A DNA stretch of 63,999 nucleotides, the filler included, from Gonapodya sp. JEL0774 (lineage: Eukaryota), in assembly GCA_027604505.1 (NCBI GenBank). It is 17 parts of 17 records of this genome, joined end to end, with 100 filler letters (N's around TTAATTAATTAA, not from the genome) between each part and the next. Parts side by side here need not be neighbours in the genome. Positions count along the whole stretch, not along the records: positions 22,761 to 26,438 come from JADIIX010001186.1; 16 more parts are not named here. One strand, given 5' to 3'. Position 1 is the stretch's first letter; every line of letters begins with the position of its first letter. The position numbers and the translations under genes are program-made. The notes beneath the pieces were generated by a model that saw only the letters and a list, made by a program, of their open reading frames with translations, did not search any database and was not told the DNA's origin. Below, piece by piece: positions 14,558 to 44,600 of the stretch.

Positions 14558-15741
14558 GTTGTCGGTTTACTGTAGGAAATGGGAAAGGAGCTAGTAGTAT
14601 ATGGTATGTATTGCTAAGACACCTGGGAGAAGAGCTGTTTGTTTGTGATCAATTTGCTTTCATTCGTACCGATATACACTCTGTTCAAGGACGCTCGGTT
14701 GAGTAACACACATAGTGACTATGTAGCTGTGAAGGAGACCAGTGAATCAAGAACTGCAAATATTGAGTTGCATGAAGGTTTATCTGATAGATCTCTTGCT
14801 TGAGGAACTCGAAAGAATCTTGTGCTAGTCAGTCCTTTTGCGGTTTGACACATACTCGTCAGTGATGGCTGCCCACTAGGAAAAAACACCCGTCACTTGC
14901 TCAACCGCCATGAGCTGTCGCCGTCTCAGGAGCTCAAACGGAAACCACATTGAATATGAAACTGAAATGGCTGATGAGTGTCAACTGTGCAAATCTGACT
15001 GAGCGTTAAATTGAAAGCACACTGCACCTGGTCCCCATGGTCACTCAAGCTCTTCAAAAATGTCAATACCGACACCCACGTTCACTCCTGGGTNNNNNNN
15101 NNNNNNNNNNNNNNNNNNNNNNNNNNNNNNNNNNNNNTTAATTAATTAANNNNNNNNNNNNNNNNNNNNNNNNNNNNNNNNNNNNNNNNNNNNCAGGCGC
15201 GGGGACAGCACCTGGAACACACAGAGAGACCAACACCATGACGAAACACCACATTTATGGTATTAATTCGTGACTGCAACCGAGAAATCTTTTACAAATG
15301 CGCTCTCACCGTGCAAATCCGGGTCATCAGAATTGCTGCTGCTCTCCATGAGATTTCTGCTAAGATTTGCAACACGCAGCACCTCTTCGATAGCGTAATT
15401 GGTAGATTGATATGTTGCAAAGCTTATGGAGGATTTTGAAGAATTATTTGCGATGTACGGGAAGGGTGAACATGGTGTGCGGCAGGCGAAAAACCAGGGT
15501 TGCGTTGCAAGTGACTCAATTGTATTTGTCACAAATTGACTCATGAAATATATTCAGCATTATTGTACTACAGGAATGTGAAAATATCAGGCCAATCGCA
15601 GTCGATTTTACGAGTCAAACAAGCAGAGTTTTGTGCTCCCAATTCGCGCGCCTGAATTGGGAGGGCTCCCAATATTTTCCCTCATGCCACATACCTTGTG
15701 TGCACCAAAGTCGTGATAACTAAATTCTGCGCAACCTCTCT

Positions 15742-15960
15742 ATTGATGTGAAGTATCATTTTATTAGGGAACAGCTGCAGAAACGGTTGCTGAAATTGTC
15801 ATATTGTCCCACAAAGAGCAACACTGCAGATGTCATGACCAAACCGTTGTCAACGCCTGATTTTGAGCGACACTGCGCAGGGATGGGATTGGGAGCAGTT
15901 GGATAGTTGGCGTTGATTGGAAACAACACACTGGAGTGTTTTGTTTCAGGGGGAGTGTGA
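15742..15960 (+). mobile_element. Ty1/copia remnant: RNase H C-terminus plus polypurine tract
   Basis: IDVKYHFIREQLQKRLLKLSYCPTKSNTADVMTKPL...GMGLGAVG* (stop ends 15906), then AGGGGGAG-TGT at 15948-15958. Confidence 0.85.
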
Positions 15961-16170
15961 AGTCTTGGATGATACCATTGGTGACACAATAATTTGTATA
16001 CACTGGATTTGGACTCCGGAGATGATTTGGGGAAGTGGTTGGATGAGTCATCACTGTGGCCTGTGTGGCACAGCAGGTCAAAGTACATATAAACAGCCCA
16101 TTTTCCCATGTAGTGTGTGTTGTGTGAGAAAAGACAAGTTTGGAGTTCCAACATATAAGGGGACTCTGAC

Positions 16171-16413
16171 ATGCAAGTGCCCATAACTACTGCAGCCTAC
16201 GTCATCCACCAGCTTACCCAAATGGAAGAACTCATCATTGACCTCGGTTGTGGAGCAGCAGGATTTCGAGTTGCTGCCCTTTTGACCAATCGCAAGTACA
16301 TTGGGATTAAATTTGTCACTGATGTAGCTGGATCTGCTTTGAAGCACCTTAAACATTTGTTGAAGAGAAGGGGGCTCTTGCTGCTAAGTAGGCTTATAAC
16401 GGTTTCATCCTAG
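16171..16413 (+). pseudogene. Degenerate fragment resembling the C-terminus of an N6A/N4C DNA methyltransferase
   Basis: QVPITTAAYVIHQLTQMEELIIDLGCGAAGFRVAALLTNRKYIGI resembles the beta-class pattern KP..L...I...T..G..VLD.F.GSG....A....R..IGIE. An in-frame stop lies just upstream. Confidence 0.5.
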
Positions 16414-17017
16414 GCACTGTTTGTACACCTTGCCATTTAATTTGCACTTTATAGGTACATTGAATACACTACCTTGAAGTCTGTAGATGTGTTGACAGGT
16501 AAAGAGAACGTTCTCCCTCCACGCCTCAAGTGGAGACTGCCCACACTTTGTCAGTCAGCAACTCCACTCAAGACTGGTGTCATCGAGACTCGTTCTGCAA
16601 AGTGTCCACAAGACAAGGGTGACACTGAGGAGAATGTAGATGTGGGAGCTTCAGACCGCAAGGGAAAGAGAGTAGCACGTAGGCCTTCCTGCCTAACCCC
16701 TAGAGCTCAATGCTTCATTGAGAAATACTGCGTTGATGTACAGGCAAAGGATGGGTGAAGCAAATGTAGATGTAGGATTATCAATACATATTCAAACACC
16801 ATCTTTCACAAACCATTGAGGGCAAAAGATAAGAGGGAGAAGTTCATGTTGGATCTATAATGTACGTACAGATATGTAAGGAAACATGAAATAAGAGGGC
16901 TGTCCAGAGAAGTAATACTTAAGGGGCAAACAAAAATAAGTCAAGACAGAATATTCTCGGGCAGGGTTAAAACAGGATATGGAGGAGGGGTGGAGAAATT
17001 TTTGTGAAACAGGTTTT

Positions 17018-17098
17018 GCCACCATAGCTCAACAGGTTATGAGCCCGTACTGCTGACAGAGAGGTCACATGTTCGAACCCCAGTGGGAGGAAATTTTT
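17018..17098 (+). pseudogene. tRNA-like element (tRNA pseudogene or SINE head)
   Basis: A-box TAGCTCAACAGG, D-stem GCTC/GAGC, B-box GTTCGAACC and a T-run terminator; anticodon and T stems do not pair well. Confidence 0.55.
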
Positions 17099-17121
17099 CA
17101 AAGTGGTGGCATGCCAAACTA

Positions 17122-17395
17122 TGTTGAGATATGGGTGTTTTGACATTTCGGATGGCTCTAGCGCAACAGGGAGTGGGAATTCTGGGATATTAATGGAGCA
17201 ACATTACTCGCCGTAAAACTCTCTACAAGTTTGTCTTTTTCAGTTTTGTTGTAGTGTTGTTGGTTAGTGAGCTACACTAGGGAACATGGATAACTTGGTG
17301 CACACACTTCAGGATGGTGCTATGGTTGTCGGATAAACCAGATTAAGCTTTTTCTGTACGACGCGTTCGAATAAGTGAATCATGACCACTTAACA
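17122..17395. mobile_element. Solo LTR, copy 1, with 5-bp TSD AACTA
   Basis: Begins TGTTGAG, ends CTTAACA; AACTA on both sides; aligns along its length with 20822-21099. Confidence 0.9.
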
Positions 17396-18131
17396 AACTA
17401 TGAGTGTTCGACCATTAGAAAGGGAGATTTGTCTGGGTCAGGCAACCCTGAAGCAGAGATGCTGTCTTCAGGGGGCGTGTTAAGGATAAAGAGAGAATCC
17501 AGCACTCTGCCCCTGTACAGGTTTTGTCACCATAGCTTAACACAGTTGGTGTTCACCTGTCCTGTCAAATGTTCTTTCAACCCGAACATTTTCACCGCTC
17601 TCCATCCTCAGCTTCCACACCAGTACTCTGAATGTCCATTCTGCTCAGTTAGCTTTTTGTCCACAACCCTTGAGAAGCTCCATTGGCTTGAATTCCCCAG
17701 TCATAACGTCAAATTGGTTGCAGTGGTGAAGGTAGGAGTTTACAAAGGTCCTCCAGGCAGCAAATTGTCAACTCATTCCGGTTTTGAGACAATGGTGATT
17801 ATCCTGGGCTCATTACCTGTTGCAATTGTGGCTCTCTCTCTTATGTGGAACACGGTACAGTATAACCTGCTATCTCCAGCCGCAGTAAGTGCATACCATA
17901 CCCTCATTAGCTGCACGTCAAAACTGTCGTCCAGTACTGTTTGTGGGGCAGGGGGCAGTAGTGACATCACTCAATCAATACATGACACCAGGCACCAATT
18001 GCTTGACTATCTCTCCAATGGCATCAGCGTACTCTCTTCAGCAGTCCAAGCCCCTCCTCCATCTCCACCAGGAAATTTGAGGGTGGAGAAACACCCCCAA
18101 GAACGCGTTTAATCAGCATCAATGGAATCAT

Positions 18132-18497
18132 GTGATCCCAAAGATGAAATCAAAGTACCTGGTTCTGAAGGAACTCCCCCAATTGTCGTTTGTAAACCTT
18201 GTGGCCCGAATCAAGAAGATATACAAAACTGTCACCTATGCTTGGGACAAGAGTGGATTTGGATGGAATAGCACCAAATTTTTCATCACTGCAGCAGAAG
18301 GGGTCTGGGATCGTTTGAAGACTGAGGTGGGTGAGAACCGAGACTTGCAAGTGTCTGTGTGCAAAAGTTTCAATCTATGGATCTTCGGCTTCATGCACCA
18401 TTCAAATCAGCAGAACAAGAAGCGGGACAGCTACCATCCCGTCCAACCACCCTGGCCACTGTATCTGAAGGCAGCGGCAGTCTACTCTGGTCAGTAG
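18132..18497 (+). mobile_element. Myb/SANT-like domain fragment of the type carried by PIF/Harbinger transposons
   Basis: RIKKIYKTV...KSGFGWNS...ITAAEGVWDRL...PWPLY motif, in CpG-poor decayed context. Confidence 0.65.
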
Positions 18498-18659
18498 GTT
18501 GCACGTGGTAGGATGTCAAACCCAGTGAGCATCTGGATGATTCTGGCCGTGATGACACAGATCTAGAAGATGATGATCTGGAAAGAGTTATCAGTTACTC
18601 ATTTGGAGGTTTCAGCAGATTCTTGGGGGATCTTGAATCAACTCCATCTCACGCCCTGA

Positions 18660-18815
18660 CGAATCGAATACGAACCGAATATCAACGTAATCATAATCGC
18701 CCTTTTCGAACAAGCGAACATGATTCTGGAGTTTGTATCGAATATCGAATAATAAAATTGCTATTCGACTCGAATAGTGGCAACTTCTACGAATAACTGC
18801 GAATAATTCGAATAC
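18660..18815. repeat. Cluster of CGAAT(A)/TATTCG motifs, possible DNA-transposon subterminal region
   Basis: Many CGAAT(A) copies, some in inverted orientation, in ~155 bp. Confidence 0.5.
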
Positions 18816-18981
18816 TTTAGCAAAACATTAGCTAAACTACTCCTCATCATTTTCCACTTCCTCCACTTCCATATCTGAGTCNNNNNNNNNNNNNNNNNNN
18901 NNNNNNNNNNNNNNNNNNNNNNNNNTTAATTAATTAANNNNNNNNNNNNNNNNNNNNNNNNNNNNNNNNNNNNNNNNNNNN

Positions 18982-22760: not shown

Positions 22761-22792
22761 CCCATCCCATCCCATCCCATAATCCCCATCCC
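22761..22792 (+). repeat. (CCCAT)n tract at contig start
   Basis: cccatcccatcccatcccat...ccccatccc; truncated by the assembly break. Confidence 0.9.
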
Positions 22793-22874
22793 TTCGCCAA
22801 CTCACATAAAACCCATCGAACGCATCGATCAGCTCATACACAAAAACGCGCAACTCGAATCATCCCAATACTCA

Positions 22875-23716
22875 ATGTCCCCAGCCACTGATTACAATGT
22901 GTTTTTCGGGCGGATGCCCTATCCAAACCGGCTGCCCTCAATCGTAGAACAAACTCGTGGCCAAGGTACAGGAGCGATAGTGCAGAAGTTCGAGCAAGTC
23001 ATCGCCAGCACATTGCTGACTATGGGACAGAAGTTATCGAGCAGTCAAGTCAAATCCGAAAGAGAGGTCAGCGTCATTATCAGGCTCAGGAAATATTGTT
23101 CATCATCTTACATACTCTCTACGTCTGTAGATCACATCCAGGCTCAGCGAGCTAGAAAAAAGGCTTGATAAAGGCTTGCAAGCCATTGCGTCTCTCAAAG
23201 CGTCCGTAGATGCCTTGGTAGGAACGTTTGTGATGCGAATCTCCCTCATACACATCTCATCTCGTTTTGTTATCAGCGTGACGCATCCCTTCGTAACGAC
23301 GAATCACCTGTCTTGAGGAGAATCGACGAAATAGAACAGAAACTTGAACGGCGCTTAGAGGTTTCGGTAAGCTACCAACTGTCTCCTCACTCGGAGAGAG
23401 ACCATCACTCACTGAAAGAACAAACTCCCTTTTCAGCATGATTCTAATGCGCTTTCGCAGATTCTGTCCAGAATGGACGAGTTTGAACGTAAACACAAAC
23501 CTGCGGTGAGAGTGAACCGTTTTGGACTCAAAACTTGTATCATCAAATAGCTCACTGTTGCTTTGAAAACAGAAGACCTCGCGCAAGGAAGTCGACACTA
23601 TCAGCACTCGCTCAAGTAGAGCCCGGATAGATTTGGAGCCTAATCACACTACTCGAGAGCGTATAAGTAACAGGCGAAGTGCTCGATTACAACAGATAGG
23701 GCGGCGGAGTATTTAG
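22875..23716 (+). CDS. 5-exon coiled-coil protein of unknown function
   Basis: Exons 22875-23066, 23131-23217, 23277-23366, 23437-23505, 23573-23716. Four phase-0 GT..AG introns of 64, 59, 70 and 67 nt give one open frame; exons 2-4 each contain an R[LIM]xExE[KQR][KR]-type motif. Confidence 0.75.
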
Positions 23717-23723
23717 GAGTATT

Positions 23724-24158
23724 TTATCGTAGTTGTGTGACTTGCATAAACGATTGTGTCTTTGATGTATTGTCAATAGCTGGTACTGAATTAGGAGGTG
23801 TTTCCAACTTGAGTGACACAACATCGTTGGTTTGAAGAGGAATAACGTCTGAGCATTCAACAGCAACTCGTCCAGCGCGACCGTCTGTCAGAAGAGGCCA
23901 TGATGAATATGGCTCGCCATTCAGTAGGACGACGAGGCTGATATTACCAGTAAAGAGAGACGATGTACCGCATAGGACGAGGCGACCACGCACGTCATAG
24001 AGGCCATCGCGCGGTGCTGTATACCGTCCAAAGTTGAAAGTTCCCCCGCCTCGCACATATACGGGAACAAATCCGGTAACTGCACATGAACCAGATTGCA
24101 ATACGTTACCATGAATTGCCATTGCCCGTGCGGATGCCAAGTCAGAGTTGAACGCCAT
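23724..24158 (-). CDS. C1q/TNF-like beta-sandwich protein (putative virion fibre or receptor-binding head)
   Basis: GRYTAPRDGLYDVRG...VVLLNG...SDVIPLQTNDVVSL...SFMQVTQL follows the C1q pattern G.FTAP..GLY.F...L..GD.V; intronless. Confidence 0.7.
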   Translation of the reverse strand: MAFNSDLASARAMAIHGNVLQSGSCAVTGFVPVYVRGGGTFNFGRYTAPRDGLYDVRGRLVLCGTSSLFTGNISLVVLLNGEPYSSWPLLTDGRAGRVAVECSDVIPLQTNDVVSLKLETPPNSVPAIDNTSKTQSFMQVTQLR

Positions 24159-24204
24159 GATACCTTCTTTTTTATGTTTTTGAAGCGTTTACGTCATAGA
24201 GAAA

Positions 24205-24744
24205 ATGAACGCGAATACAACACGACTCCGTGAGGTCATGGTTGGTGTCCACAGTACTGCGAGAGATAGAGTCGCATTTCCATCCCGTGCAGAGTTCAGA
24301 GTCAAACTGCCAACACCTCTTCCCAATGTGGTGTCAGTTGAGCTGTTGGGGATCACGGTCCCCATAGACAACGTATTTGCTGCAACGCCATTTATTGCAC
24401 TCGATATTCGTGAACTGAACTCATTTGTTGTCGGTACTACCCACTTTCCCGTATTTGCTGTTGTACAGACTCACTGTATGCCTCCCTCAACTCCTCCAAA
24501 TATATTTTGGTCAATGGACAAGAGAATGGCTGAACACTGTATAACGGTGTTTGAGTCACCTCGCGATAAATTGGATACGTTTACCGTGCGACTCCTCGAT
24601 CACAACGGCGCTCCACTCGCATTGGGGTCGGATGTTGAAGGAACTCCAATTGATGAGACCAAGCAAGTGCATTTGTTTCTCAAAGCGTGCGTGCAAACAC
24701 CCGATACAAGCTTCATAACTTCACGTTACTCGGGTTACACTTGA
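24205..24744 (+). CDS. Putative Nucleocytoviricota penton/minor capsid-like single jelly-roll protein
   Basis: VHSTARDRVAFPSRAEFRVKL..PLPNVVSVELLGITVP, PFIALDIREL, VFAVV, FESPRDKLDTFTVRLLDHNGAPL match the pattern IDS..RD...YP....F.V.L....NV.SIEL...P / PY..L.I.EL / F..P...L..L.I...D..G, recalled from giant-virus proteins; intronless. Confidence 0.72.
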   Translation: MNANTTRLREVMVGVHSTARDRVAFPSRAEFRVKLPTPLPNVVSVELLGITVPIDNVFAATPFIALDIRELNSFVVGTTHFPVFAVVQTHCMPPSTPPNIFWSMDKRMAEHCITVFESPRDKLDTFTVRLLDHNGAPLALGSDVEGTPIDETKQVHLFLKACVQTPDTSFITSRYSGYT

Positions 24745-24776
24745 GACATTTTTTACCTTTGGTCTTCACACCTGCT

Positions 24777-25499
24777 ATGAAAACATCGACTGTTGCATTC
24801 ATTTTGTCGGGCGTGTTATGCCTGGCACTCATAGCTACAATCGTCACCTTGGTCATACTCTATGTCGTTCGTCGCAAGACACAAGAATCTCCATCCCCAT
24901 CGTCCAACTCACCGTCGCCGTCGCCGTCATCGTCGACGTCCAATACAGGGTCGCCGAGCATGAGTGACTATCCTTCAGGAGGGACTTATGCCCCAAACTC
25001 CCCAGAACTAACAAAATTGTTAAGCGATGCATGTAAAGTAGCTGGTATCGAGCAGTCTTGGGCCACAAATCAAGCTATTCACGACTTGATTCAGAAAGAG
25101 TCTGGTGGCCGCGTAGGCATTCCAAACTATACGATGTCTAATTGGTTACCTTCACCCTTCAACATCAGCGACCTTCAGAATCGGACAGATTTATGGCCAG
25201 CATTGTGGGAAAAAATGAAGTCCGGTGATCCCGCCTATCGAGGGAGTACGGGTACCCAATCCAGGCGTGACTGCATAGGTCTCTTTCAAGTCTGCTTCGA
25301 TTCAGGATCCACATCTCGAATGCTCAAAGACAGTTCCGGAGCACCTGCACTCGGCAACCCACTGGCAGAGGCCGTAGGTGGCCTTCTTGGCGTTAAGGCG
25401 GTGTATGGAACTCCGGAGATATTGCTATACGGTGGAACGAAACCCGACGGATCCTGGTGGGGTGGATATAGCTCCGCATCTGGATGGGACGGATGGTAG
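24777..25499 (+). CDS. Membrane-anchored lytic transglycosylase/lysozyme-like (SLT/GH23-like) protein
   Basis: N-terminal TM helix followed by RRK, Ser/Pro linker, then LIQKESGG (catalytic Glu motif), IGLFQV, NPLAEAVGG...VYG; intronless. Confidence 0.72.
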   Translation: MKTSTVAFILSGVLCLALIATIVTLVILYVVRRKTQESPSPSSNSPSPSPSSSTSNTGSPSMSDYPSGGTYAPNSPELTKLLSDACKVAGIEQSWATNQAIHDLIQKESGGRVGIPNYTMSNWLPSPFNISDLQNRTDLWPALWEKMKSGDPAYRGSTGTQSRRDCIGLFQVCFDSGSTSRMLKDSSGAPALGNPLAEAVGGLLGVKAVYGTPEILLYGGTKPDGSWWGGYSSASGWDGW

Positions 25500-25546
25500 G
25501 TAGTACAGTCTGATGACGATTGCAGAATCATGTTCTGGTGAATCTT

Positions 25547-25648
25547 CATCCCAATCACCCATCCCCATCCCCCATCCCCATCCCCCCATCCCACATCCCA
25601 CATCCCACATCCCATATCCCACATCCCACATCCCACATCCCCATCCTC
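25547..25648 (+). repeat. (CCCAT)/(CCCACAT)n tract upstream of the RING gene
   Basis: Roughly 100 bp of CCCCAT/CCCACAT units ending ~30 bp before the ATG at 25680. Confidence 0.9.
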
Positions 25649-25679
25649 ATACCATTTTCCAGCTAAAAAGTCCACTCTA

Positions 25680-26438
25680 ATGAGCCAGTTCGACGCTTTG
25701 ATATCCAATACTGGAGATCGCGTACCACCTCCTTCTTTCAGCATGAATGCCGATCCAGCGATAGTCGTCGTCGTCCCCCTGGATTTTGCCAGGAAACTCT
25801 TCGTCACTCTATCTCGAGTGATACTCGATAGACCAACGCAGAAGCAACTTGGCCTTTTCACTTTCAGCGACACAATGGTGGACTGGTGTCGAACCTTTGG
25901 CCAAGCAATGCAGTCCACACTCACTCGCAACCTGGTGCGAAAAGTCATCTCGGGTGACCAGGAGTGTGAAAAGGCATTTCAGGGCATCATCAAATGGTTT
26001 TACATCCATAATGCTACTCGACTATCCAAACCAAGCGTTCGACACCCAGAATACCTGCCATCCTTTACCGTTATCGCCCAACAGATGCTATGCGATATCT
26101 GCTTGCAGCCTCTTCTGCGACCACATGTCGTTTGTGGAAATGGCCACTTGCGCTGCGAGTCATGTCTGTTTGATATACAGTCACATAGCCTCAAAGAAGC
26201 CGCGTTGTGCGCGCTTTGTCGAGAACCGTCGTTGCTCGCTTCGATACGGCTGCACAGTCTCGACGCACTTTTCGACGGATTGCCGGTTGCGTGTACGAAG
26301 TGCGAATTGAAGATGTGTAGGCGGAATTGGGAGTCCCACTCGCTCTCATGCGTACGGTGCAATTGGTGTGAAGAATGGACAGGTGGCTACTCGCTCGTTA
26401 CCCATCGACACTCGCATTGCACCGCTGCCCAATCGCGT
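25680..26438 (+). CDS. RING finger + TRAF/SIAH-type zinc-finger protein (putative E3 ligase); 3' truncated
   Basis: CDIC...CGNGHLRCESC...CALCR (C3HC4), then LPVACTKC...WESHSLSC and CNWC...HRHSHC; intronless over 759 nt. Confidence 0.85.
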
Positions 26439-30214: not shown

Positions 30215-30379
30215 NNNNNNNNNNNNNNNNNNNNNNNNNNNNNNNNNNNNNNNNNNNNTTAATTAATTAANNNNNNNNNNNNNNNNNNNNNNNNNNNNNN
30301 NNNNNNNNNNNNNNTAAAAACCCACTTGAGCAGTGGAGTTCCAACCTCTCAAACTTGTTTCACCACATTCCGAACTTCT

Positions 30380-30427
30380 TTGACAAACGCAATCAAACTT
30401 AAATTGACAAACGCAATCAAACTTAAA
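30380..30427 (+). repeat. Perfect 24-bp tandem duplication in the retroelement leader
   Basis: TTGACAAACGCAATCAAACTTAAA x2. Confidence 0.95.
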
Positions 30428-30505
30428 AAAACACATCAAACTCAGAATTCACTATACCACGTACAATCTACCGAGCCTAAGTGATTACATAGACATCAGA
30501 ACTGA

Positions 30506-32059
30506 ATGCCTCGCGCCCCGCGTGTCGCTCTTCCTCCTGTGCCCAACCCAAACGCTGCCCTCAACATCGAGCAGCTCCGCGTCACGTACACAAGGCAAGA
30601 AATCGTTGAAGGAAACTATAAGTTCCTTATAAATATTTGTCGGCGTTACAATCGTTCCGATCCTGTTCCCAAATTGGTGGTGACAGGCACGGCGGATACA
30701 CTCCGAGCCCGACTCCTCGGACTTTTTCCCGAAGTCCCTCAATCTGAATCATTCGATCTCACGCAGCTTCGCGCACAAATCAATTTAGAATCCGTAGATA
30801 CAACAGATAAAGCACAATTACTCAGCCTTGCTCGCAAATATAACACATCTAACCCCGAAACAAAGCTCCCACTAACAGGAACACTGGTTTCCATCCGCAA
30901 AGCATTTAAAAATCTTCTACAGATAGAAGCAATCCCCGAAGCTGTACCTGCCCCAGCAGTCAGATTTGCAGACGACGTACCTCCCCCTCAGGACACGGAA
31001 ATCCCCGTGCTTGAGCAACCAAAACTCAAAGCAATTACATTAGCTCCAGCTAGACCCGACAACCCTATAAAGAACGCAGTTGCTGTCGATTCTGATCCTA
31101 ACAATAACGCTGCGAGACGCCAGCGGGAATTACTTGACAACGTTCTCCTTTCTCAAGCATTATTAGACTCAGGTCCACACGACCCAAACGAGCTCGGTTT
31201 CCAACAAAATACTACATTCAATTACTTTCGGTCCAGTAACGAGATAATCGGCGCTCAGATCAAGAACCCAGTTCTTCGTATCATTGAGAACCGCCGAAGG
31301 GTCCATCGCGAAAATTTTGCCGAGACATATCGCGAAATCCTTGCTGGTCCACACGAACCTCTTCCCCAAGCTGTTTGGAAAGAGATCGCATTTGGATCCT
31401 ACGTTTCCTTAGAAAAGTGCTTAGACGATAACGTTCAAATCGCTCTATCGGACCCGGAGGTCCAATATATTTCAGGCACTAACGCCGCGATAGTCCTTGG
31501 TGACCCGCGACCAAAAATCCGAATCAACAACTTCACGACTTGGTTCAGCGCCTGGCAGACGTACTCCTCTGCATCATCATTTCTATTCCCCGAACTCCGA
31601 ACGTGGAGTATCCTTGACAATTATGCAAAACATATATCCCAACTTGTACGAATGTACGGGGAACACAACTGGTCCCGTATTTACCAATATGACGTTGCGC
31701 GCCGCCAAAGAGTTGCCGCTGACCCAACGTTATCTCTACTCGACCAAAATGTCCTCAGCCCGTCCCTGTACCTCTCGGCACTCACAGCTGCCCTACCGAA
31801 GACCGGACAAACAAACGTCCGCACGAAAGGGACCCCCTACAAATCACACGGTGGTCCCAAACGTACGAATGACATCTGTAACAACTGGAATGAAGGCCGA
31901 TGCGCTGATGCCGGACCATGCATTAATGGACGGCAGCACATCTGCAAGCGCTGCAGCGGTCGCCACCGTGAACTCCAATGTCCACAAAAGAACAACGCCG
32001 GTAACAACTTTAGACCAGCTCAACCAGGGCGTCCCGGCCCCGCTGCCGCGGGCGCTTGA
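30506..32059 (+). CDS. Gag-like ORF1 with Cys/His zinc fingers
   Basis: INNFTTWFSAWQTY...WSRIYQYDVARR and CNNWNEGRC...C..GRQHICKRCSGRH...C, typical of DIRS/Ngaro ORF1. Confidence 0.85.
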   Translation: MPRAPRVALPPVPNPNAALNIEQLRVTYTRQEIVEGNYKFLINICRRYNRSDPVPKLVVTGTADTLRARLLGLFPEVPQSESFDLTQLRAQINLESVDTTDKAQLLSLARKYNTSNPETKLPLTGTLVSIRKAFKNLLQIEAIPEAVPAPAVRFADDVPPPQDTEIPVLEQPKLKAITLAPARPDNPIKNAVAVDSDPNNNAARRQRELLDNVLLSQALLDSGPHDPNELGFQQNTTFNYFRSSNEIIGAQIKNPVLRIIENRRRVHRENFAETYREILAGPHEPLPQAVWKEIAFGSYVSLEKCLDDNVQIALSDPEVQYISGTNAAIVLGDPRPKIRINNFTTWFSAWQTYSSASSFLFPELRTWSILDNYAKHISQLVRMYGEHNWSRIYQYDVARRQRVAADPTLSLLDQNVLSPSLYLSALTAALPKTGQTNVRTKGTPYKSHGGPKRTNDICNNWNEGRCADAGPCINGRQHICKRCSGRHRELQCPQKNNAGNNFRPAQPGRPGPAAAGA

Positions 32060-33851
32060 GCTTGCGTACTTTCGACCGCAACGCTCACTTTTTGAGCAAA
32101 GCATACCAGAAGATACCAATATACCCATCCTGTTATCCGGTCCTTCAACTATTGATACTGTATTAAAACCATATACGTACACACCTGACGAACTGGCAAT
32201 TATTGCCACCCTCCCAACAGACGTGTTCAAGGTGGGGCCGTCACCCATCAACGTGAAATCTCTCCTCTCCCTTACCACCGACCACCCAAACAAAGATTAT
32301 ATTGCTTACATTACACAAGGCCTACAACATGGCTTTTCTTGGGGCCTGAACGGTCTCCACACACCTTTCGTCCTGGACAATCTCAAATCTAGTAACTTAG
32401 CACCAGACAAAATCGATGAAAACATTGCGGAAGAACTTTCCCTTGGTCGTATGACAGCCACAGAAAACATACCACATCTTCGTGCTCGCGTTTCCCCAAT
32501 TGGGCAGGTGCCTAAACGTGACTCAGACAAAGTTCGGAATATATTTCATCTCTCTGCCGCCCCCCCGGGGATCAACTCGGTAAACGATGACATTAACCCT
32601 GAAGAATTTCGAACACAATATGAAGGCATCAGCACAATTATCTCCTGGATCCGTTATCTCGGACCCAATTGTTGGGCCTGGAAGGTGGATGTCAAATCCG
32701 CCTTTCGACTGCTCCCGCTACGGGTTCTCGACCAACTCTCCCACATTTTTCAGTGGTATAACAAATATTATGTCGATCACAATCTATCATTTGGGGGACG
32801 ACCCTCGCCGGCGCTTTGGAATCGCCTCGCCGACCTCATATGTTGGATTGCGAATCGCCGGATCATCATACCTGGCGCGATCGGCCACTATATGGATGAC
32901 TTCTGGGGGCTGTTCCGCGGCTCATTTGCTGAAGCATACGAATCATTTTGTGGCTTTCTTGCCTTACTATCACTGCTAGGCATACCAGTAGCTCCTGAGA
33001 AGCTGGTTTCTCCGACACACCACATCACCTTGATCGGTTTTGCACTGAACACCGAAACCCTGTGCATCACTATTCCTGACGAGAAAATAAAATCTTTGCT
33101 CAACGAATTTGCCCGATGGCAAAATCTACAAAAATGTACTCTCAGTGACTTACAATCCCTAGCTGGGTCACTCATCTGGTACGGACAAATCCTACCACAT
33201 GCTCGCACATTCACACAAGAATGCCTCCTCCGAACCAGACCTACCGCTCGGGGAGGTCGCACACGACATGTTTCCGTCTCAATGAAAAACGAACTGACCT
33301 GGTGGGCCCAAGCCCTCCGCGTCTGGCCGGGTCTGGACCTGACTTCCGATAGAGAATGGATCCAACCGGCCCACTCCTTCTTTTACACAGACTCCACACC
33401 GCTGGCTGGTGGTGCTACCATACACTCCAAATTTACACGCATCTCCTGGCCTGTTTCTGTGACCACAAACTCATTTGTCACGATTCAAGTCCTTGAACTA
33501 GCCATGGTATGGGTGGCAATCTCTACATTTGCGAGCTACATTGTCCACCGCCGCTTCATATGCTACACTGATAATGAGTCCAACGTAAAAGCTTTCGATA
33601 AAGGGGCCAGCGAAAATCCCCTTGTCCACTCCATCATTCGGGAGCTCTACTGGGCGCAGCTTCGACTGGAAGTCGAACTCCGCCTGGTGTTCATCCCTGG
33701 CCTCACAAACAAAGTTGCGGATCTAATCTCCCGCACCCCATCTGACGAATTCGCCATAAAAGCGCTACCCCACCTCCAATTTGAGTCCGCACTGATTCCA
33801 CCATTCACAGACCCTTCACTACGGATATTGTTTACCCGCGGCGCACCTTAG
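31497..33851 (+). CDS. Reverse transcriptase + RNase H (DIRS/Ngaro pol); start uncertain
   Basis: VSPIGQVPKR, RNIFHLS, KVDVKSAFRLLP, LSFGGRPSP, YMDDF, LQSLAGSL, YTDST, IQVLELAMV, YTDNES, NKVADLISR; uninterrupted. Confidence 0.95.
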   Translation: MVTRDQKSESTTSRLGSAPGRRTPLHHHFYSPNSERGVSLTIMQNIYPNLYECTGNTTGPVFTNMTLRAAKELPLTQRYLYSTKMSSARPCTSRHSQLPYRRPDKQTSARKGPPTNHTVVPNVRMTSVTTGMKADALMPDHALMDGSTSASAAAVATVNSNVHKRTTPVTTLDQLNQGVPAPLPRALELAYFRPQRSLFEQSIPEDTNIPILLSGPSTIDTVLKPYTYTPDELAIIATLPTDVFKVGPSPINVKSLLSLTTDHPNKDYIAYITQGLQHGFSWGLNGLHTPFVLDNLKSSNLAPDKIDENIAEELSLGRMTATENIPHLRARVSPIGQVPKRDSDKVRNIFHLSAAPPGINSVNDDINPEEFRTQYEGISTIISWIRYLGPNCWAWKVDVKSAFRLLPLRVLDQLSHIFQWYNKYYVDHNLSFGGRPSPALWNRLADLICWIANRRIIIPGAIGHYMDDFWGLFRGSFAEAYESFCGFLALLSLLGIPVAPEKLVSPTHHITLIGFALNTETLCITIPDEKIKSLLNEFARWQNLQKCTLSDLQSLAGSLIWYGQILPHARTFTQECLLRTRPTARGGRTRHVSVSMKNELTWWAQALRVWPGLDLTSDREWIQPAHSFFYTDSTPLAGGATIHSKFTRISWPVSVTTNSFVTIQVLELAMVWVAISTFASYIVHRRFICYTDNESNVKAFDKGASENPLVHSIIRELYWAQLRLEVELRLVFIPGLTNKVADLISRTPSDEFAIKALPHLQFESALIPPFTDPSLRILFTRGAP

Positions 33852-34090
33852 GAGTTAGGACCGCACCCCCCATTCCTCCCCCTCTCGCTTTGGCCAACTC
33901 CCCGCTTCTGCCGATGCCTTCCATACCAACAATCCCTGAGCTCCTTCAGCTTCCCGACATACCAAACTTCCTCGCGTCCCGTCGCCTTGANNNNNNNNNN
34001 NNNNNNNNNNNNNNNNNNNNNNNNNNNNNNNNNNTTAATTAATTAANNNNNNNNNNNNNNNNNNNNNNNNNNNNNNNNNNNNNNNNNNNN

Positions 34091-37865: not shown

Positions 37866-38295
37866 GTATCCCCTCCAACAGGAACAGAAGTCTTACCTTG
37901 GTCAAACGTCAGAAGCAAAGAAGTTCAGATCTACCATGGATGCTCTTCCAGCACCTGAGATGAATTTATTGAAGTCGACTGTGTTCTCAAAATCCCAGCC
38001 GGCGCTTCCTGCCATGGGCAATGTCGAGAGCTTCTCCACGCTTTCACCAAGCGACGCACTTCGTCCACACTCTGCTCACGTACGGCGACCACTTACTCCA
38101 GCAGGAGCTGTGCGACCCAACTGGGTTCTACCATCGTGGTTAGCGGGTTTGATATTGGGAAGGAAGAAGGATCATGAGAGGCTTATCTGCATAGAATATG
38201 ATAGTGCATCGGACATGGGTTGGTCAGACCACAAACCTGTGTTTGCGGCGTTTGAGGTTCACGGATGGAATTGGAGCAACGATGTGGGTTTTTGA
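37866..38295 (+). CDS. Inositol polyphosphate 5-phosphatase-like C-terminus; 5' truncated
   Basis: EYDS....WSDHKPVFAAFEV terminal motif of the EEP/5-phosphatase family. Confidence 0.75.
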
Positions 38296-38469
38296 TGTGC
38301 CGCTGGTTCGCAGGGTGGACACGGCAGGAGAGGAGGGATTTGGTTTGATTTTCAGCTCAACGGTACAGTACGGGACATCGTTACTATATATTTAGATATG
38401 TATGCTCAGGGATATTCAGATTGTATGTATTATGGTATCACGAGAGTTGCCACTCGCCAAACAGAGCAA

Positions 38470-41400
38470 TCACGCGGACCTTGCTGCTGTCACAGCATTA
38501 ACCACGTTGAATGCAATGACTAAAACCAGTGAAGATGAAAGTACCACCAAGCATGCGATGGCGACTGTGAGAGGAGGCCATGGGACCCAGTCTGGCACAG
38601 ATTTGAACGACGAAGATGCAAACGTCTCGTGAGGCACCACTGTGGCCTCAATAGTCCGAACACTTGTCCGTTTTTGTCGAAAACCCTCCATGGGGACATC
38701 CTCATTGCCCATAACGGATCTCTGTAGGGAAGGGAACGACCCGCGATCGCCAATGGAAACGGGCGGGCGATCGAACGCAATGGTCTCAGATGCAGCAAAG
38801 CTGTTTATGGAAGATGTGGGAGAGGCGGGGTGATCACAGAGCTCCGGTGTAAGTGATCGGTTCAGATTTGCCATCGTCGTATCACTGGATAAATCCTGGA
38901 TTTGTAGACGAGGGATATTTAATCCACTTCGAAAGCTTTTGCCCGGTGGTGGGGAGCCTGGATACACAACAACAGACGGTATAGAAGAAGTCAGGAGAGG
39001 ATGCTCTGCTGTAGTTGGTGTGCGAAGGAGGGTGCCATCTGAAAATGTTGGAGACATGGGATCTTCGAATCTTCTGTCAGGCTCTTCCTCCAGCAGGCCG
39101 ATAGTGGACTTCCTGGCATCACGTTTAGGAGAGCCTAGGATACTTCCCATTCGATTTTGAATGGTACGAATTGGTTTTCGGTTCTGATGAGAATGTTGTA
39201 TTGAAAACTGCTCCCTTCCGGCATCTGATAACATGAGAGACGTTTGGCTCATTGCGAGTCCCTCCTCCAGCTCATTCATATCCGAGTGGGATGGATCGGG
39301 AGTCTCACGTCTGTGAGTATCAGATGTCGTATCTCCCCCATATGAACCCCTCCGATGTGAAGTCCGGTTCAGACCAAAAAGCGAGCCACCAGTTGCTGAG
39401 AAGACTCGCGCTCCATCGAGTTCGAGTTGAATATTGCGAGAGATCGATCGAGTAATGGCGATTGGATTCGGCATCTCCACTTTAGATAATCGAGTTAGAG
39501 TTGCATTTGTGCCATGATCTTCCTCGAGAATAGTCGGTGCTATCCGCAATGGGTTATCGGGGATGGCAACACCGAAAGTGTCACTTGGACTGCGATACAC
39601 GGTGTGTCTTGCCGAATCCTCAATTCGTACAGCATCGGCCGGCTTTCCAGGATTTACTGCAGGGGTAGACGATTGCGATTTAGGAAACACCCCATCCAAC
39701 CTTAGTGATGCAAACGAAAGTCCCGATGGCTTGCGCGAAAGCTCTGATGAGTTTTGCGATAATCCAAGCATCGGTATACGAGCACCGCCCGATGCCTGTA
39801 CGAGATGAGATCCAGATTCATTCTGTTCTTCCTCAAACACGCTATCGGCAAATTCTTCGTCATCCGTAAGAGGGTCATTGACCTCCACCTCCACCCCGTC
39901 AAGTGTCAACGTTGCGGTAGCTCCTGGCACTTGCAATACACTTGTGTCCACGCTGACTCTCGACAGCGACATTCCAGACGAGGGGTGCACCGACAGCACG
40001 GTGCTCGAAGTTCGAGATTTGTGGGGTTGACGATTCGAATCACCTGAGACGGAACGAGTTGAAGGCTGTCGCAGCAACCGTTCATCCGGAGACAAATGAC
40101 TGCCGTACTTGATAGGTCGGATTTGCGGGGTTGGCGGCGCAAGGGCGACTGAATCATTTCGGTCCATCGTTTCGGGTTTGTCCCCCTCTCCTGTCACAAC
40201 AAAAGTTGGGATCGAAGTGCCCTTTTCGTCCCCGAGTGCATTTTCAGGGCTGGATTTCGTGATGTAATGATTCCTTTGTGTGTTGTCAACTGATCCCAAA
40301 ACATTACTCGGTGCGTACTGTGCATTTCGGGACGACATCTGTCGTGAACTGTGAAATTCGATTTCACTATCCAGAATCTTTGGTGTCATCACGTCACTCA
40401 ATCCGACTCTAGTCGCAAAGGAGTTGAATGCTGAGGCCAAAATGGCTACTGCACTGGCAGTATGGCCCGGGGGAAGTGAATCGGGGATCCGAGACTCCCC
40501 GCCAAAGTGGGACTTCACTACAGTCCCCTTTTGTCGCGCCTTTTTCTCCAAATGCTTTTTCACCGCATCCGATTCTGGGTGAATTTGAGTCAAAAGTTCC
40601 TTTTGGTGGTCAGTGAGGCAACTTTGTTTCCTATGTCGCCATTCCTCACGGAACTTTCGAGCACGCAGGTAGATGACGATCGGGAGAACAAAATTCGCGA
40701 GTGATGTCGTGAACAGAGACGACCATGACACGAAACTGCTGATATAAGGACCCGTCTGGAAAGGAATAGCCACAAGGAATGGCATAATTGTTGAGAGGAC
40801 AGTCGCTAGTCCTGGGAACGTTATATATCTGATCAGACGAAGAACAAAAATGCTGACCGATCGCTGTATGCTGCCCACCTTTCCCACACACATCGTTTTG
40901 AACGAGATTTTCGTGCACAATGATAATGAAAATTGGGATCGAAGTGACCAATGAAACGAGGGGGAACGCGTAAACAGTGGCTTGTGCAACACGTAGCCAG
41001 TGCGCAAAGCTGGCGGATGTACCAAGAGGAGCGACAATAGCGTTAAGCGCTGAAAGAAGATTTCCGTCAAGTGAAAGGGAAAGCGTTGCTGCCCCTGTCA
41101 TTGCGGCGTTCACAGAAGCGTCTTCCATAACTCGTTATTCAGAGCTTTGAGTCTCGCGCGCTCTCACCAAACGTCCCGATGGCAATATATAGTCCAGTTG
41201 AATACGCTCCGCTCCACCATAGTGTGCTGGAAATGTCAACTCGCGGGGTCCTAACATTGACCCAGGACGGGACAGTCGTGACGAAAGCTAGATTAAATAG
41301 AACTGTGCCGACAACCATCGTCAGAGCTCCGTTCTCGCTGATAACAGGTGCAAGTGGCGATGGTACAGTTGCGGACGCAAGGAGGAACGCAGGTCGGTTT

Positions 41401-41539
41401 GCCAGCACTAATCCAAAGGTAAGAAGCCAGATCACGAATATCAAGAGGGTAAGAAAGGTCGATATGACTTGAACGAAAATATTGTCTGCAAGTTTGACCA
41501 TTCCGAGCGGAATTATCATCAGAGTGGTGATCTTCAGGG
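38470..41539 (-). CDS. Amino-acid transporter-like (Aa_trans/APC) protein with a very long disordered insert; 5' truncated
   Basis: Multiple TM helices (IIPLGMVKLADNIFVQ, VGTVLFNLAFVTTVPSWVN, SIPIFIIIVHENL, SSLFTTSLANFVLP), then a long Ser-rich loop and a final TM helix. Confidence 0.75.
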
Positions 41540-41639: not shown

Positions 41640-44600
41640 TATGTGTTTTTGACAGTAGGTAATTGTGTCAATAATTTCAAAACATCCATCATACAGGTCT
41701 GGGGTGTGAATTTCATGGCATGTGTTGTAGGAGAACCAGATATGGATGGAAATAATCACCAATAATATCTGCTTTAAAGATTCTGTGTATCATAGGAATG
41801 AGAATGACTTCCAACTGGCCTAAAATCTGATATGATTTGTTGAATGTCTGATGGCGAAGTCTGTACTTTTATTGGGGAGCGGGAGCTCTTTACCTCTTTT
41901 GATGATTCCACAGAGACAAGGAGGGTGCTAATAGTCTCTAATAATCCAGTTGCAGCCACTAAGCGACTGTCAACATCCTCCTCATCCTTGACAAGGTCAA
42001 GAATGCGAATCACAGAATCTCTCTGATAATACTACAGCTTCAGAAATTGAAATAATCTTGGAGAAGGTGAAAAACTTGTTCTCACAAGTTGGCTCCCCAG
42101 CTGCACTGCAAAAGGGATGAGCTCATCCCCAAACAATTCCACAACAGAATCCATAACTATCAAACATAAAGTTTTTCCTGTTAAGCTATAAGATTCTGGG
42201 GAAAAAAAAGAAGCATTGCCTCACCAGATGCAAGTGCATCATGATCAGCATCTGCCATTAGATTTAACAAAGCATTCATGAGTGCTGCATAAACAGAATA
42301 TGATTGTGTTTGCAATTTAATATCAGAATTGATTTGAATTGCCTACAAGCAGCATGTGGTTTGATCTGACTTTGAATGCGCTCATCTTGAAGCAGGGCTT
42401 GCAGGGCCAGGCAAGATGACACTCTCACAGGGAGCTCAACATCTCTCATGCAATATTGCACTCCCTAAGAGACATCCAAAATAAGTATTGTTGCATGCCA
42501 ATAGGTTCCAGATCAAAAAAACAACCTCCAGGATCAGGTGCAGCTGAGAATCAGAAGAATGGATTCTCAATTCAGGAACAGAGTTCTCAAATGCAACAAT
42601 GACCCATTTCTTACTGAGCTGTCAGTCCATGATATGTCAGTGAATCTTTCCACCAGATCACAAGCCTCAAAATAAGCTTTGTCAATACTCTCACAACTTC
42701 ATCAAAGTTGATTGAGCTCACTTGCATTCTAAGCCAAGGATACTGACTTCTGAAGTTGTGGAATGCATTTACCAGAAGAACTTGCTCTATTTCAGATTCC
42801 TTAACTGGAGATTTCTGAAGAAAACCATGAATTTCACTATATTGGCAGCCTGGAACAGAAAAAACAACTGCACACCTCTGAAAGCAAGAAGTCTGAAAGC
42901 TATGGCAAGGAAAAATGAACATCTTGAGCTTCGATTGTTCAAGTCACAAGTAAAATGTACCCAAAGAACTCACACATCCCATCATGCTCAACAAGCCAAA
43001 TTTTGACCTTGATTGTTCTCTTGTAAGCTCTCCAGTCTGAAACTCTGGCAACCTGGTGTTGAGAAATGCAAGAGCTGCAGTGAAGCTCACTTTCCTCCGC
43101 TCCTTCACAAGAACTGTAAGAAGTTGCAATGCAGCAGTTGTGTTTGAATTGATATCCCTGTCTGGATCAAGGTGATCAGCAAGGTATTCCCTGGGGCTTA
43201 AATGATTAGATAAAAATATTTGAGTCCAAAGAGTTAATTTTTAAGATCATCTGCATCAACACACTCTTCCTGCCATTGCTGTATGTCCCTGTCTTGAATG
43301 GATGTCAGTGGGAAGATCAAGTGCTTTGAAACAACACTTTCAAAAAGGAAGGCAAAGATCCAACTACATTGACTCTGTGTACTCACAGCAATCAAGTTAT
43401 TCAAATGAGATTTCAGTAATGCCCATGTTTGCTTATATTTGACACTGGATGAATTTAATGAATATAGGAATTAGAGAAAGGGTTGTCTTCCAAATTGGCA
43501 GCAATCTTAAACAGTCACCACTCAGTAAGGAACATCAAGATAAAATTCATTCCACGGGGCATAATCCAGAGATTTTGAGATACCCAAGAATCTATTTGTG
43601 CCATATAAATTTTCATGATTGATGGAGCAAACTCTGTGAGGAGCAGTGTGGCAAATACTTCATGATGTAATGCCCTTTTTGATTGGAAAGCTGGGTTTGC
43701 GTATCTATGGGAATGAAACACAATGTGTACACCCCACATGTGCACAACATTCCCAAAACACAAAATACCTGACAATCAGTTTGTGCACAATAAACTGTGC
43801 CCACTTTTTGGCTTTGCACCATGGTTCTTTGACCCTGTCATCCTCACATATTCTCAGCACATCTGTGGGAAGATCACGCTTGATCACTTGACCAACTAAG
43901 GATCCCCATGCAACAAACGATTGGGGCTGTTGAAGCGCTGTTGGCATCTCCATCTTAGATTTTTCCGGAGCATACTATTAGAATGACGTTCCCAGAAAGC
44001 ACTTAATTGCCTTACCTGAATAATTCTAGCATAGATCTTCAGAACAATTCTCAAGACATCTCCTGCATCTGTCGTGTCACTTCCAATCATCTGTGGACCA
44101 ATCTTCAACAGTTCTGGTATCGCAACATTCAACAGTGTCTCAAAACCTTCATCTCGGTTTTCAGCTGCCCTCCACCTGCATGCATAAATGATAACTGCTT
44201 CCGCTGAGGAAAACTGGACTCTCTCTCACCTGTAAATCTTTGCGACAGCAAGTAAGCAGTTAAGTCCCGCCCTCACACTCTCTATCTCTTGTATACTCAG
44301 AAGTAGCATAGACTTCTGCAAATAGTCAGGCCACTGAGAAGGGTAATCAATGTCCAAAACGCGGCTAAGTGCAGCAAGGATGCTCGCTCTGATGGCAACG
44401 TGAAAATTGTAATTTAGAAGAGAAAGGATAGAGTAAATGCAAAGGAAAATGAACCTCGCTTGTCGTGGAGATTTCACGAGGGCCTGTCAAAAGATTCTCA
44501 TTATTGGTGTGTGGTCGAATCGCGTTGCTTGCGAAAAGTCACCTCATGGAAACGTCCGCGTAAGTGATCTTTTTCAGCACTCTCAATGGGGTGCTCAGAA

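What the first reader, a model, noticed from the sequence alone, without database searches (positions are those of the whole stretch)
22761..26438. Giant-virus-like (Nucleocytoviricota) gene cluster in a fungal assembly
Seen: unlike every other contig, this one has four consecutive intronless ORFs and intergenic gaps of only 7, 46 and 32 bp. Recognised by motif: a penton/minor-capsid-like jelly-roll (24205-24744), divergent from a C1q-like protein (23724-24158), followed by an SLT-like hydrolase and a RING-TRAF protein. Established: such structural genes and RING E3 ligases are common in NCLDVs, and large DNA viruses occur as endogenous or co-assembled elements in zoosporic fungi. Inference: this is part of an endogenous or infecting large DNA virus, with intact frames implying recent activity.
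Basis: partly seen in the sequence, partly recalled or inferred. Interest (0 to 1): 0.88.

Follow-up and report, generated by a model that had tools for sequence, protein, structure and literature searches.

The report
Giant-virus penton gene in water fungus
A 3.7-kb piece of a water-fungus genome assembly carries a gene whose protein matches the capsid-corner (penton) protein of giant algal viruses, so it is likely a scrap of an integrated giant virus of a kind already reported from such fungi, here packed 7 bases from a predicted intron-containing gene.

Summary
The viral call holds; the "recent activity" inference is unsupported. Window 22761-26438 is one 3,678-bp contig. ORF 24205-24744 is a Nucleocytoviricota-type penton: a family profile hits PBCV-1 P1 at E 3e-19, the AlphaFold model has pLDDT 91, and P1 is the top fold match (Z 17.7, rmsd 2.4 Å over 147 residues). 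A relative sits on a giant-virus MAG contig beside an mRNA-capping enzyme. The membrane-anchored SLT-like ORF keeps the catalytic-type Glu; its only homologues found are in Gonapodya prolifera. The C1q-like call is weak, and the RING ORF runs off the contig end. Corrections: only two of the three short gaps lie between the four ORFs. The third is 180 bp. The 7-bp gap abuts an unreported five-exon gene model (22875-23716; 0 of 300 shuffles score as well). Composition is host-like. Best reading: a fragment of an endogenous, Mycodnaviridae-like element. Family membership, integration and activity could not be tested: no genome was held, and no major capsid or polymerase gene lies on the contig. 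Giant-virus islands in Gonapodya are published, so this is a new member of a known kind.

The parts
22761..26438 (.). Whole contig, 3,678 bp, GC 0.49, CpG observed/expected 0.99
22761..22792 (+). CCCAT-type short repeat at the contig's left end, upstream of the spliced gene
22875..23716 (+). Predicted five-exon gene, 193 aa (exons 22875-23066, 23131-23217, 23277-23366, 23437-23505, 23573-23716). Four GT..YAG introns of 64, 59, 70 and 67 nt, all phase 0, none a multiple of 3. Exons 2-4 each carry a similar coiled-coil-like heptad. No family known; host or viral origin open.
   Evidence: (0 of 300 shuffles reach the score); no RNA evidence
23724..24158 (-). 144-aa ORF, weakly C1q/BclA-like beta-sandwich; candidate fibre-head or decoration protein (inferred)
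   Evidence: 10.7 bits against a profile of 8 bacterial C1q-like domains, 0 of 2000 shuffles reach it, hhalign probability only 4%; no Pfam hit at E<=10; AlphaFold failed
24159..24204 (.). 46-bp AT-rich divergent gap; holds a 2-mismatch match (24171-24182, - strand) to the published punuivirus promoter motif, at chance frequency window-wide
24205..24744 (+). 179-aa single jelly-roll penton of the PBCV-1 P1 (A310L) / DUF5901-related family
24777..25499 (+). 240-aa protein: N-terminal hydrophobic helix (about residues 13-31), Ser/Pro linker, SLT/lysozyme-like domain with Glu108 in the ES motif and a GLxQ motif at 168-171
25547..25646 (+). (CATCCCA)n microsatellite, about 15 copies, in the 180-bp gap before the RING ORF
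25680..26438 (+). 253-aa ORF, cut by the contig end; C3HC4 RING from residue 138, followed by a Cys/His-rich stretch resembling a Sina/TRAF zinc finger
   Evidence: Sina_RING E 6.9e-5, under cut-off; TRIM21 RING E 7e-4; no homologue found

Best explanation
The contig encodes a protein matching the giant-virus penton (PBCV-1 P1 family) and is likely a fragment of a Nucleocytoviricota element integrated in the genome of a Gonapodya-like monoblepharid fungus, probably related to the Mycodnaviridae. SHOWN: the penton fold and family; an SLT-type domain with its catalytic-type Glu; a RING; tight packing; a statistically strong spliced gene model 7 bp away. INFERRED: the three central intronless genes form a late virion module. 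The penton would cap the five-fold vertices. The C1q-like protein would be a surface fibre head or decoration. The membrane-anchored SLT-like enzyme would cut a beta-1,4-GlcNAc polymer, most plausibly the chitinous wall, at entry or exit. The RING protein would act as an E3 ligase on host proteins. The spliced gene most likely belongs to the same element and is read by host nuclear machinery, as in punuivirus. Whether the element can still make particles is unknown.
For: Penton. phmmer finds PBCV-1 P1 at E 0.009. 72 relatives pass E<=1e-3 among 1.84 billion representatives. A profile of the query plus 66 of them hits 6NCL P1 at E 3e-19 and 8H2I P1v1 at 3.7e-15; the next hit is at E 0.44. The AlphaFold model has pLDDT 90.6. 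In Foldseek PDB, P1 is the only hit with E<=1e-3 (3.5e-9, TM 0.71). VIA gives P1 Z 17.7 (rmsd 2.4, 147 aligned), P1v1 14.8, a Sputnik virophage chain 9.9 and the mavirus penton 9.0. BFVD has 45 hits at E<=1e-3: 27 of the 34 named rows are nucleocytoviruses by name (my classification, recalled), 2 are unplaced, and the 5 others rank 39-44. P1 is A310L, the penton (PMC7019647, passage). Context. A family member (29% identity to the query, E 2e-14 within that locus) lies on a GVMAG contig with mRNA-capping enzyme, FtsJ methyltransferase, thymidylate synthase and RING genes. Host. The SLT-like ORF has 2 homologues among 2,094 candidates, both G. prolifera JEL478, at 60-66% identity. That genome is reported to hold NCLDV islands amid eukaryotic genes, including MCP with a chitinase (PMC5294986, passages). 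MCP was found in 2 Monoblephidomycota (PMC13533422, Results). Integration hints. The adjacent model has introns of 59-70 nt, against 58-96 nt for 5 modelled introns in 2 host genes. Composition is host-like. Precedent for spliced genes inside an endogenous giant virus: 61 of 506 punuivirus genes (bioRxiv 10.64898/2026.10.09.758095, section 5).
Against: The contig carries no MCP, A32 ATPase, PolB or VLTF3, so lineage rests on one small gene. The penton is only 34-35% identical to its best relative and its tree position is unresolved (quick tree, long end branch 1.53, in no well-supported clade). None of the 20 relatives looked up carries a name beyond 'hypothetical protein'. Only 1 of 4 relatives scanned against IMG/VR gave a context (P0012). 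No host-virus junction is seen, and spliced genes also occur inside giant-virus genomes, so introns do not prove integration. The C1q-like, RING and spliced ORFs have no homologues that tie them to viruses. The G. prolifera SLT-like models lack 17 and 26 residues, one losing the GLxQ motif, which may mean decay in this lineage. The SLT substrate is untested.
Confidence: 0.6

Rival explanations
1. A small relic or transferred island: only the C1q-like, penton and SLT-like trio is viral, left between two host genes (the spliced gene and the RING gene) after the provirus decayed.
For: Host-like GC and tetranucleotide profile. The two outer genes are both preceded by CCCAT repeats, unlike the short AT-rich gaps of the trio. 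RING hits are to eukaryotic families. Lone capsid genes amid fungal genes are reported in three chytrids (PMC13533422), and G. prolifera viral genes sit in small islands.
Against: A 7-bp stop-to-stop gap leaves no room for separate 3' ends and looks like viral packing (inference). All three central frames are open, and CpG is not depleted (0.99, against 0.47-0.51 in two other contigs). Neither outer gene has a detected fungal homologue (RING; spliced gene: only exon 1 was scanned against Pfam).
Confidence: 0.2
2. A non-integrated virus of the fungus, a virus of another organism in the culture, or a chimeric contig.
For: A short isolated contig with no visible junction. Active replication with about 50-fold coverage is reported for one Allomyces strain. 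The 2017 survey could not exclude viruses of algal prey.
Against: SLT-like homologues lie on 183-kb and 7-kb contigs of the G. prolifera assembly. Composition and intron size resemble the host's. Most fungal elements have host-level coverage (PMC13533422 Discussion).
Confidence: 0.1
3. Part of a small NCLDV-like virus (mriyavirus, NCLDV-like polinton-like virus or virophage), which also encode pentons.
For: Polinton-like ATPases are reported in chytrid genomes, and several 15-45-kb groups have NCLDV-related capsid modules (bioRxiv 10.64898/2026.06.19.733378, passages and section 6). Polinton-like integrases lie on five fungal MCP contigs. The top three BFVD rows are unnamed.
Against: Virophage chains score Z 9-10 against 17.7 for P1. 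Tetraselmis viridis virus S1 and adintovirus rows rank 40-42 at E 2e-4 to 5e-4, against 1e-9 for named nucleocytoviruses. The one relative with a context is on a GVMAG contig with a capping enzyme.
Confidence: 0.08
4. An ordinary cellular gene cluster with a chance jelly-roll fold.
For: Jelly-roll folds are common; cellular beta-sandwiches score Z 4-6.
Against: Sequence-level homology to P1 at E 3e-19 and a Z gap of about 12 over the best cellular row.
Confidence: 0.02

Closest known systems
PBCV-1 penton P1 (A310L; PDB 6NCL chain a6) and P1v1 (8H2I; DUF5901)
   Same: Single jelly-roll of similar length (179 vs 170 aa), profile E 3e-19, Z 17.7, rmsd 2.4 Å over 147 residues.
   Different: Only 17-18% identity in the structural alignments. 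Found in a fungal assembly, not an algal virus. Assembly into pentamers is untested.
Mycodnaviridae (Myers et al., PLoS Biol 2026, PMC13533422; Results, Discussion, the viral-identification methods and the supplement legends read; 6 of 10 supplement files unreadable, including S1 Table)
   Same: Nucleocytoviricota genes in a zoosporic fungus, a mosaic of viral, bacterial-like and eukaryotic-like genes; MCP reported in 2 Monoblephidomycota.
   Different: That family is defined on MCP and GVOG7 phylogeny, none of which is on this contig. The main text does not mention a penton or Gonapodya, and the preprint has no penton or transglycosylase mention. The unreadable supplements may list this host.
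NCLDV islands of Gonapodya prolifera JEL478 (Gallot-Lavallée and Blanc 2017, PMC5294986; passages read; authors' names recalled)
   Same: Same fungal genus for the only SLT-like homologues found; viral islands amid eukaryotic genes; a wall-degrading enzyme beside a capsid gene.
   Different: There it is MCP with a chlorovirus-like chitinase; here a penton with a membrane-anchored SLT-like enzyme. I could not check whether the JEL478 homologues lie in those islands.
Punuivirus endogenous giant virus of Chlamydomonas (bioRxiv 10.64898/2026.10.09.758095; section 5 and passages read)
   Same: Spliced, host-like genes coexist with intronless virion genes in one element.
   Different: There splicing, expression and virions are shown. 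Here there is one predicted spliced gene, no RNA data and no proof that it belongs to the virus.

Membership tests
Nucleocytoviricota penton (PBCV-1 P1 family) | Single jelly-roll beta-sandwich matching solved pentons | tested here: met
   pLDDT 90.6; Foldseek E 3.5e-9, TM 0.71; Z 17.7
Nucleocytoviricota penton (PBCV-1 P1 family) | Sequence homology to P1 / DUF5901 | tested here: met
   Profile E 3e-19; 45 of 67 alignment members match DUF5901 at E<=0.01, the query itself under the cut-off
Nucleocytoviricota penton (PBCV-1 P1 family) | Forms the pentamer at the capsid vertex | not testable with these tools
   The complex tool takes at most four copies; no virion data
Mycodnaviridae | Monophyly in GVOG7 / MCP / PolB trees with MY_02 | not testable with these tools
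   No such gene on the contig; no genome held
Mycodnaviridae | Zoosporic fungal host | tested here: inconclusive
   SLT-like homologues found only in G. prolifera; spliced eukaryotic genes on other contigs; linkage of this contig to the host not shown
Mycodnaviridae | Gene-dense, intron-poor region of viral, bacterial-like and eukaryotic-like genes | tested here: inconclusive
   Four intronless ORFs with 46- and 32-bp gaps, but one of five genes has four predicted introns, and the contig is only 3.7 kb
Endogenous giant virus (integrated provirus) | Host-virus junctions, terminal inverted repeats, integrase, host-level read depth | not testable with these tools
   No genome held; no long terminal repeat within the contig
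SLT / GH23 lysozyme-like hydrolase | Catalytic Glu in the ES motif and a GLMQ-type motif | tested here: met
   Glu108 and GLFQ 168-171 align with a profile of 13 bacterial PF01464 domains, 12.3 bits, 0 of 2000 shuffles; hhalign probability 67%; Atlas on homologue P0002: SLT clusters at 0.94, TM 0.55
SLT / GH23 lysozyme-like hydrolase | Passes the Pfam SLT cut-off | tested here: not met
   No Pfam hit at E<=10; a roughly 45-residue insert splits the motifs. File as SLT-like, not as PF01464.
C1q / BclA-CTD domain | Profile match and ten-stranded beta-sandwich | tested here: inconclusive
   10.7 bits, above 2000 shuffles and top of 1,412 window segments, but hhalign probability 4%; no Pfam hit; AlphaFold pLDDT 32
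C3HC4 RING E3 ligase (Sina/TRAF type) | C3HC4 ligand pattern | tested here: met
   Pattern match from residue 138; TRIM21 RING E 7e-4; Sina_RING under cut-off
C3HC4 RING E3 ligase (Sina/TRAF type) | zf-TRAF and substrate-binding domain | tested here: inconclusive
   Cys/His-rich tail seen, no Pfam hit, gene cut by the contig end
Polinton-like virus / virophage | Penton closest to PLV or virophage pentons | tested here: not met
   Z 9-10 against 17.7; PLV rows rank 40-42 in BFVD. Small NCLDV-like groups may be poorly represented in these libraries.

The most novel reading that the evidence does not exclude
The whole contig is viral and shows a fungal giant virus with a two-programme genome. A tightly packed, intronless virion module (penton, C1q-like fibre head, membrane-anchored lysozyme-fold wall hydrolase) is flanked by host-style genes with spliceosomal introns or CCCAT-repeat upstream regions, like the latency module of punuivirus. 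It would supply a penton and a candidate wall-entry enzyme for fungal giant viruses, neither of which I found described (paper searches; text look-ups).
Probability: 0.25. Interest if true: 0.6.

Novelty: new member of a known kind. Interest (0 to 1): 0.38.

Why it matters
Fungal giant viruses were only recently established, and the main text of that paper reports no penton. A confidently folded penton adds a vertex protein, and a second marker beside MCP, for finding such elements in fragmented assemblies. A membrane-anchored lysozyme-fold enzyme beside it is a testable candidate for crossing the chitinous wall. If the spliced neighbour proves viral, intron-bearing genes inside endogenous giant viruses would extend from green algae to fungi. 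As it stands, this is a 3.7-kb scrap of a phenomenon already reported for this genus.

Tried and rejected
No whole genome is held, so hallmark genes and coverage could not be searched. The look-up of sequencing runs: none was listed, and no RNA holder was listed; this is no evidence either way. Complex prediction with four penton copies gave no answer (0.56 against a control at 0.37); four copies cannot form a pentamer, and it is not used as evidence. Word-seeded protein searches found nothing for the penton (0 of 45 candidates) or the RING ORF (0 of 189). Seven of 8 IMG/VR scans were blank (penton, SLT alignment, C1q-like, P0003, P0008, P0015, RING); only P0012 gave a locus. Both metagenome scans were blank. 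The one prokaryotic-genome hit for the C1q-like ORF (L002) is antisense to another gene and was rejected. tblastn against phages was blank; plasmid hits were chance level. Single-sequence AlphaFold of the C1q-like ORF failed. The Atlas answered only for P0002, so the penton and C1q-like ORFs have no Atlas result. The penton tree is a quick tree and unresolved. Six of the 72 penton relatives (P0014, P0053, P0057, P0059, P0064, P0069; split matches or long proteins) were left out of alignment A2. A weak tblastn hit of the spliced model to L001 (E 0.19) is on the wrong strand and was rejected. The punuivirus promoter motif occurs at chance level in the window (14 against 14.9 expected) and in L001 (35 against 32.4); its one match in this contig is only a lead. 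The 220-aa ORF 25286-25948 (-) overlaps two other ORFs and the microsatellite and was treated as a shadow frame. Supplement searches of both key papers found no Gonapodya or penton entry, but 6 of 10 files of PMC13533422 were unreadable.
Full report
Setting. The window is a string of 17 contigs of about 3.5-3.7 kb separated by N-spacers, and the finding is exactly one of them, 22761-26438. Other contigs carry eukaryotic genes (FtsJ, GATA, LRR, MatE). No whole genome is held, so nothing beyond this contig could be linked to it.

Observation. The 46- and 32-bp gaps are right. The third gap between them is 180 bp and holds a (CATCCCA)n repeat. The RING ORF runs off the contig end. Density alone is not distinctive: two other contigs have higher ORF cover (0.91 and 0.92 against 0.72).

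The 7-bp gap. Left of the C1q-like ORF lies a five-exon gene model, 22875-23716 (+), of 193 aa. It has four GT..YAG introns of 64, 59, 70 and 67 nt, all phase 0, and its stop lies 7 bp from the C1q-like stop. A dynamic programme with generic splice weights of my own recovered the same four introns, and 0 of 300 dinucleotide shuffles reached its score. The region's bounds were chosen after I had seen the model, so this is not a strict probability. Exons 2-4 each encode a similar coiled-coil-like heptad, which would explain the uniform phase by exon duplication (inference). Five introns modelled the same way in two host genes are 58-96 nt (one further in-frame intron was probably missed). There is no RNA confirmation.

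The penton. A single-sequence search gave only a faint hit to PDB 6NCL chain a6, P1 (E 0.009), which is the PBCV-1 penton A310L (PMC7019647, passage). An exhaustive search found 72 relatives at E<=1e-3, the best 35% identical. The 20 looked up carry no informative name. A profile of the query plus 66 of them hits P1 at E 3e-19 and P1v1 at 3.7e-15, with nothing else under 0.4. With that alignment AlphaFold gave pLDDT 90.6 and a mostly beta model. P1 is the only Foldseek PDB hit at E<=1e-3. It leads the wide search at Z 17.7 (rmsd 2.4 Å, 147 aligned), ahead of P1v1 (14.8), a Sputnik chain (9.9) and the mavirus penton (9.0); the best cellular rows are under 6. In BFVD, 27 of 34 named rows among 45 hits are nucleocytoviruses by my recalled classification, and polinton-like rows rank 40-42. 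One relative lies on a giant-virus MAG contig with a capping enzyme, thymidylate synthase, FtsJ and RING genes. The tree does not place the query.

The neighbours. The 240-aa ORF has an N-terminal hydrophobic helix, a Ser/Pro linker and an SLT-like domain. Glu108 and GLFQ align with the two SLT motifs in a profile of 13 bacterial domains (12.3 bits, 0 of 2000 shuffles), and the Atlas puts a homologue with SLT clusters (0.94). Pfam misses it. Its only homologues found are two G. prolifera JEL478 proteins (2 of 2,094 candidates). Their models lack 17 and 26 residues, one losing GLxQ; this could be decay or mis-annotation. The 144-aa ORF scores weakly against eight bacterial C1q-like domains (10.7 bits, 0 of 2000 shuffles, hhalign 4%), so C1q is a lead. 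The last ORF has a C3HC4 RING and no homologue found.

Composition. GC is 0.49 and CpG observed/expected 0.99. The tetranucleotide correlation to the other contigs is 0.70, fifth lowest of 17 in a range of 0.51-0.89. The contig neither stands apart from the host nor shows CpG loss.

How it most likely works. Shown: a penton of the P1 family, an SLT-type motif set, a RING, tight packing. Inferred: the three central genes are a late virion module (vertex cap, surface fibre head or decoration, and a membrane-anchored glycan hydrolase that would breach the wall), with an E3 ligase beside it. That lysozyme-fold enzymes can act on chitin is recalled, not tested here. The 7-bp tail-to-tail gap makes it somewhat more likely that the spliced gene belongs to the element than to the host. 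Both outer genes are preceded by CCCAT repeats, unlike the trio, which fits either a second, host-style gene class or two host flanks. I put 0.6 on a fragment of an integrated Mycodnaviridae-like virus, 0.2 on a small relic between host genes, 0.1 on a free or foreign virus or a chimera, 0.08 on a small NCLDV-like virus and 0.02 on cellular genes.

What is known. NCLDV islands in G. prolifera, including MCP beside a chitinase, were reported in 2017 (PMC5294986, passages). Mycodnaviridae were described with integrated and active elements, with MCP in 17 of 141 fungi, 2 of them Monoblephidomycota (PMC13533422, Results). Its main text mentions no penton; 6 of its 10 supplement files were unreadable. 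Punuivirus has 61 spliced genes among 506. Polinton-like elements also occur in chytrids. A search for penton, Nucleocytoviricota, endogenous and chytrid together returned only that last preprint, and one for lytic transglycosylase with giant viruses returned one paper, seen as a listing only. An earlier unreviewed note calls this genome Gonapodya, which agrees but is not independent evidence.

Verdict. The viral feature is real and the penton is well established. The architecture is partly misdescribed, and recent activity is not shown. It is a new member of a known kind; interest 0.38. The unreported spliced gene and the SLT-like enzyme are the parts worth following.

Noticed in passing
window 30315-33990: Two long overlapping + strand ORFs (517 and 742 aa), the second with a weak reverse-transcriptase hit (RVT_1, E 3e-5): a LINE-like retroelement contig, also dense and apparently intronless.
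   Followed up: partly
window 37866-41539: An 807-aa - strand ORF with no Pfam hit, on a contig with ORF cover 0.92.
   Followed up: no
window 15194-18881 and 41640-45313: Low GC (0.45, 0.43) and CpG depletion (0.51, 0.47), unlike the other contigs; one has a weak Myb/SANT-like hit. Possibly methylated, decayed transposons.
   Followed up: no
window 4466-5851 and 55266-56396: Two paralogous LRR proteins with a signal-like N-terminus and a shared start of the mature region; probably an expanded receptor-like family.
   Followed up: no
window 22761-22792 and 25547-25646: The same CCCAT-type repeat lies upstream of both the spliced gene and the RING gene; 18 CCCAT words in this contig against 4-11 in each of the other 16. 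Role unexplained.
   Followed up: partly
window 24171-24182 (-): The contig's only 2-mismatch match to the punuivirus promoter motif sits 13 bases upstream of the C1q-like start on the coding strand; window-wide the motif is at chance level.
   Followed up: partly
L001 564-2948 and 7189-7683: Two unannotated proteins (794 and 164 aa) near the GVMAG penton gene end in what look by eye like similar beta-rich domains; no Pfam hit. Possible fibre proteins.
   Followed up: no
P0001 and P0002 (G. prolifera KXS10214, KXS08816): Both annotated models lack internal blocks that the window's intact ORF has; gene callers may have invented introns in viral DNA or skipped lesions.
   Followed up: partly
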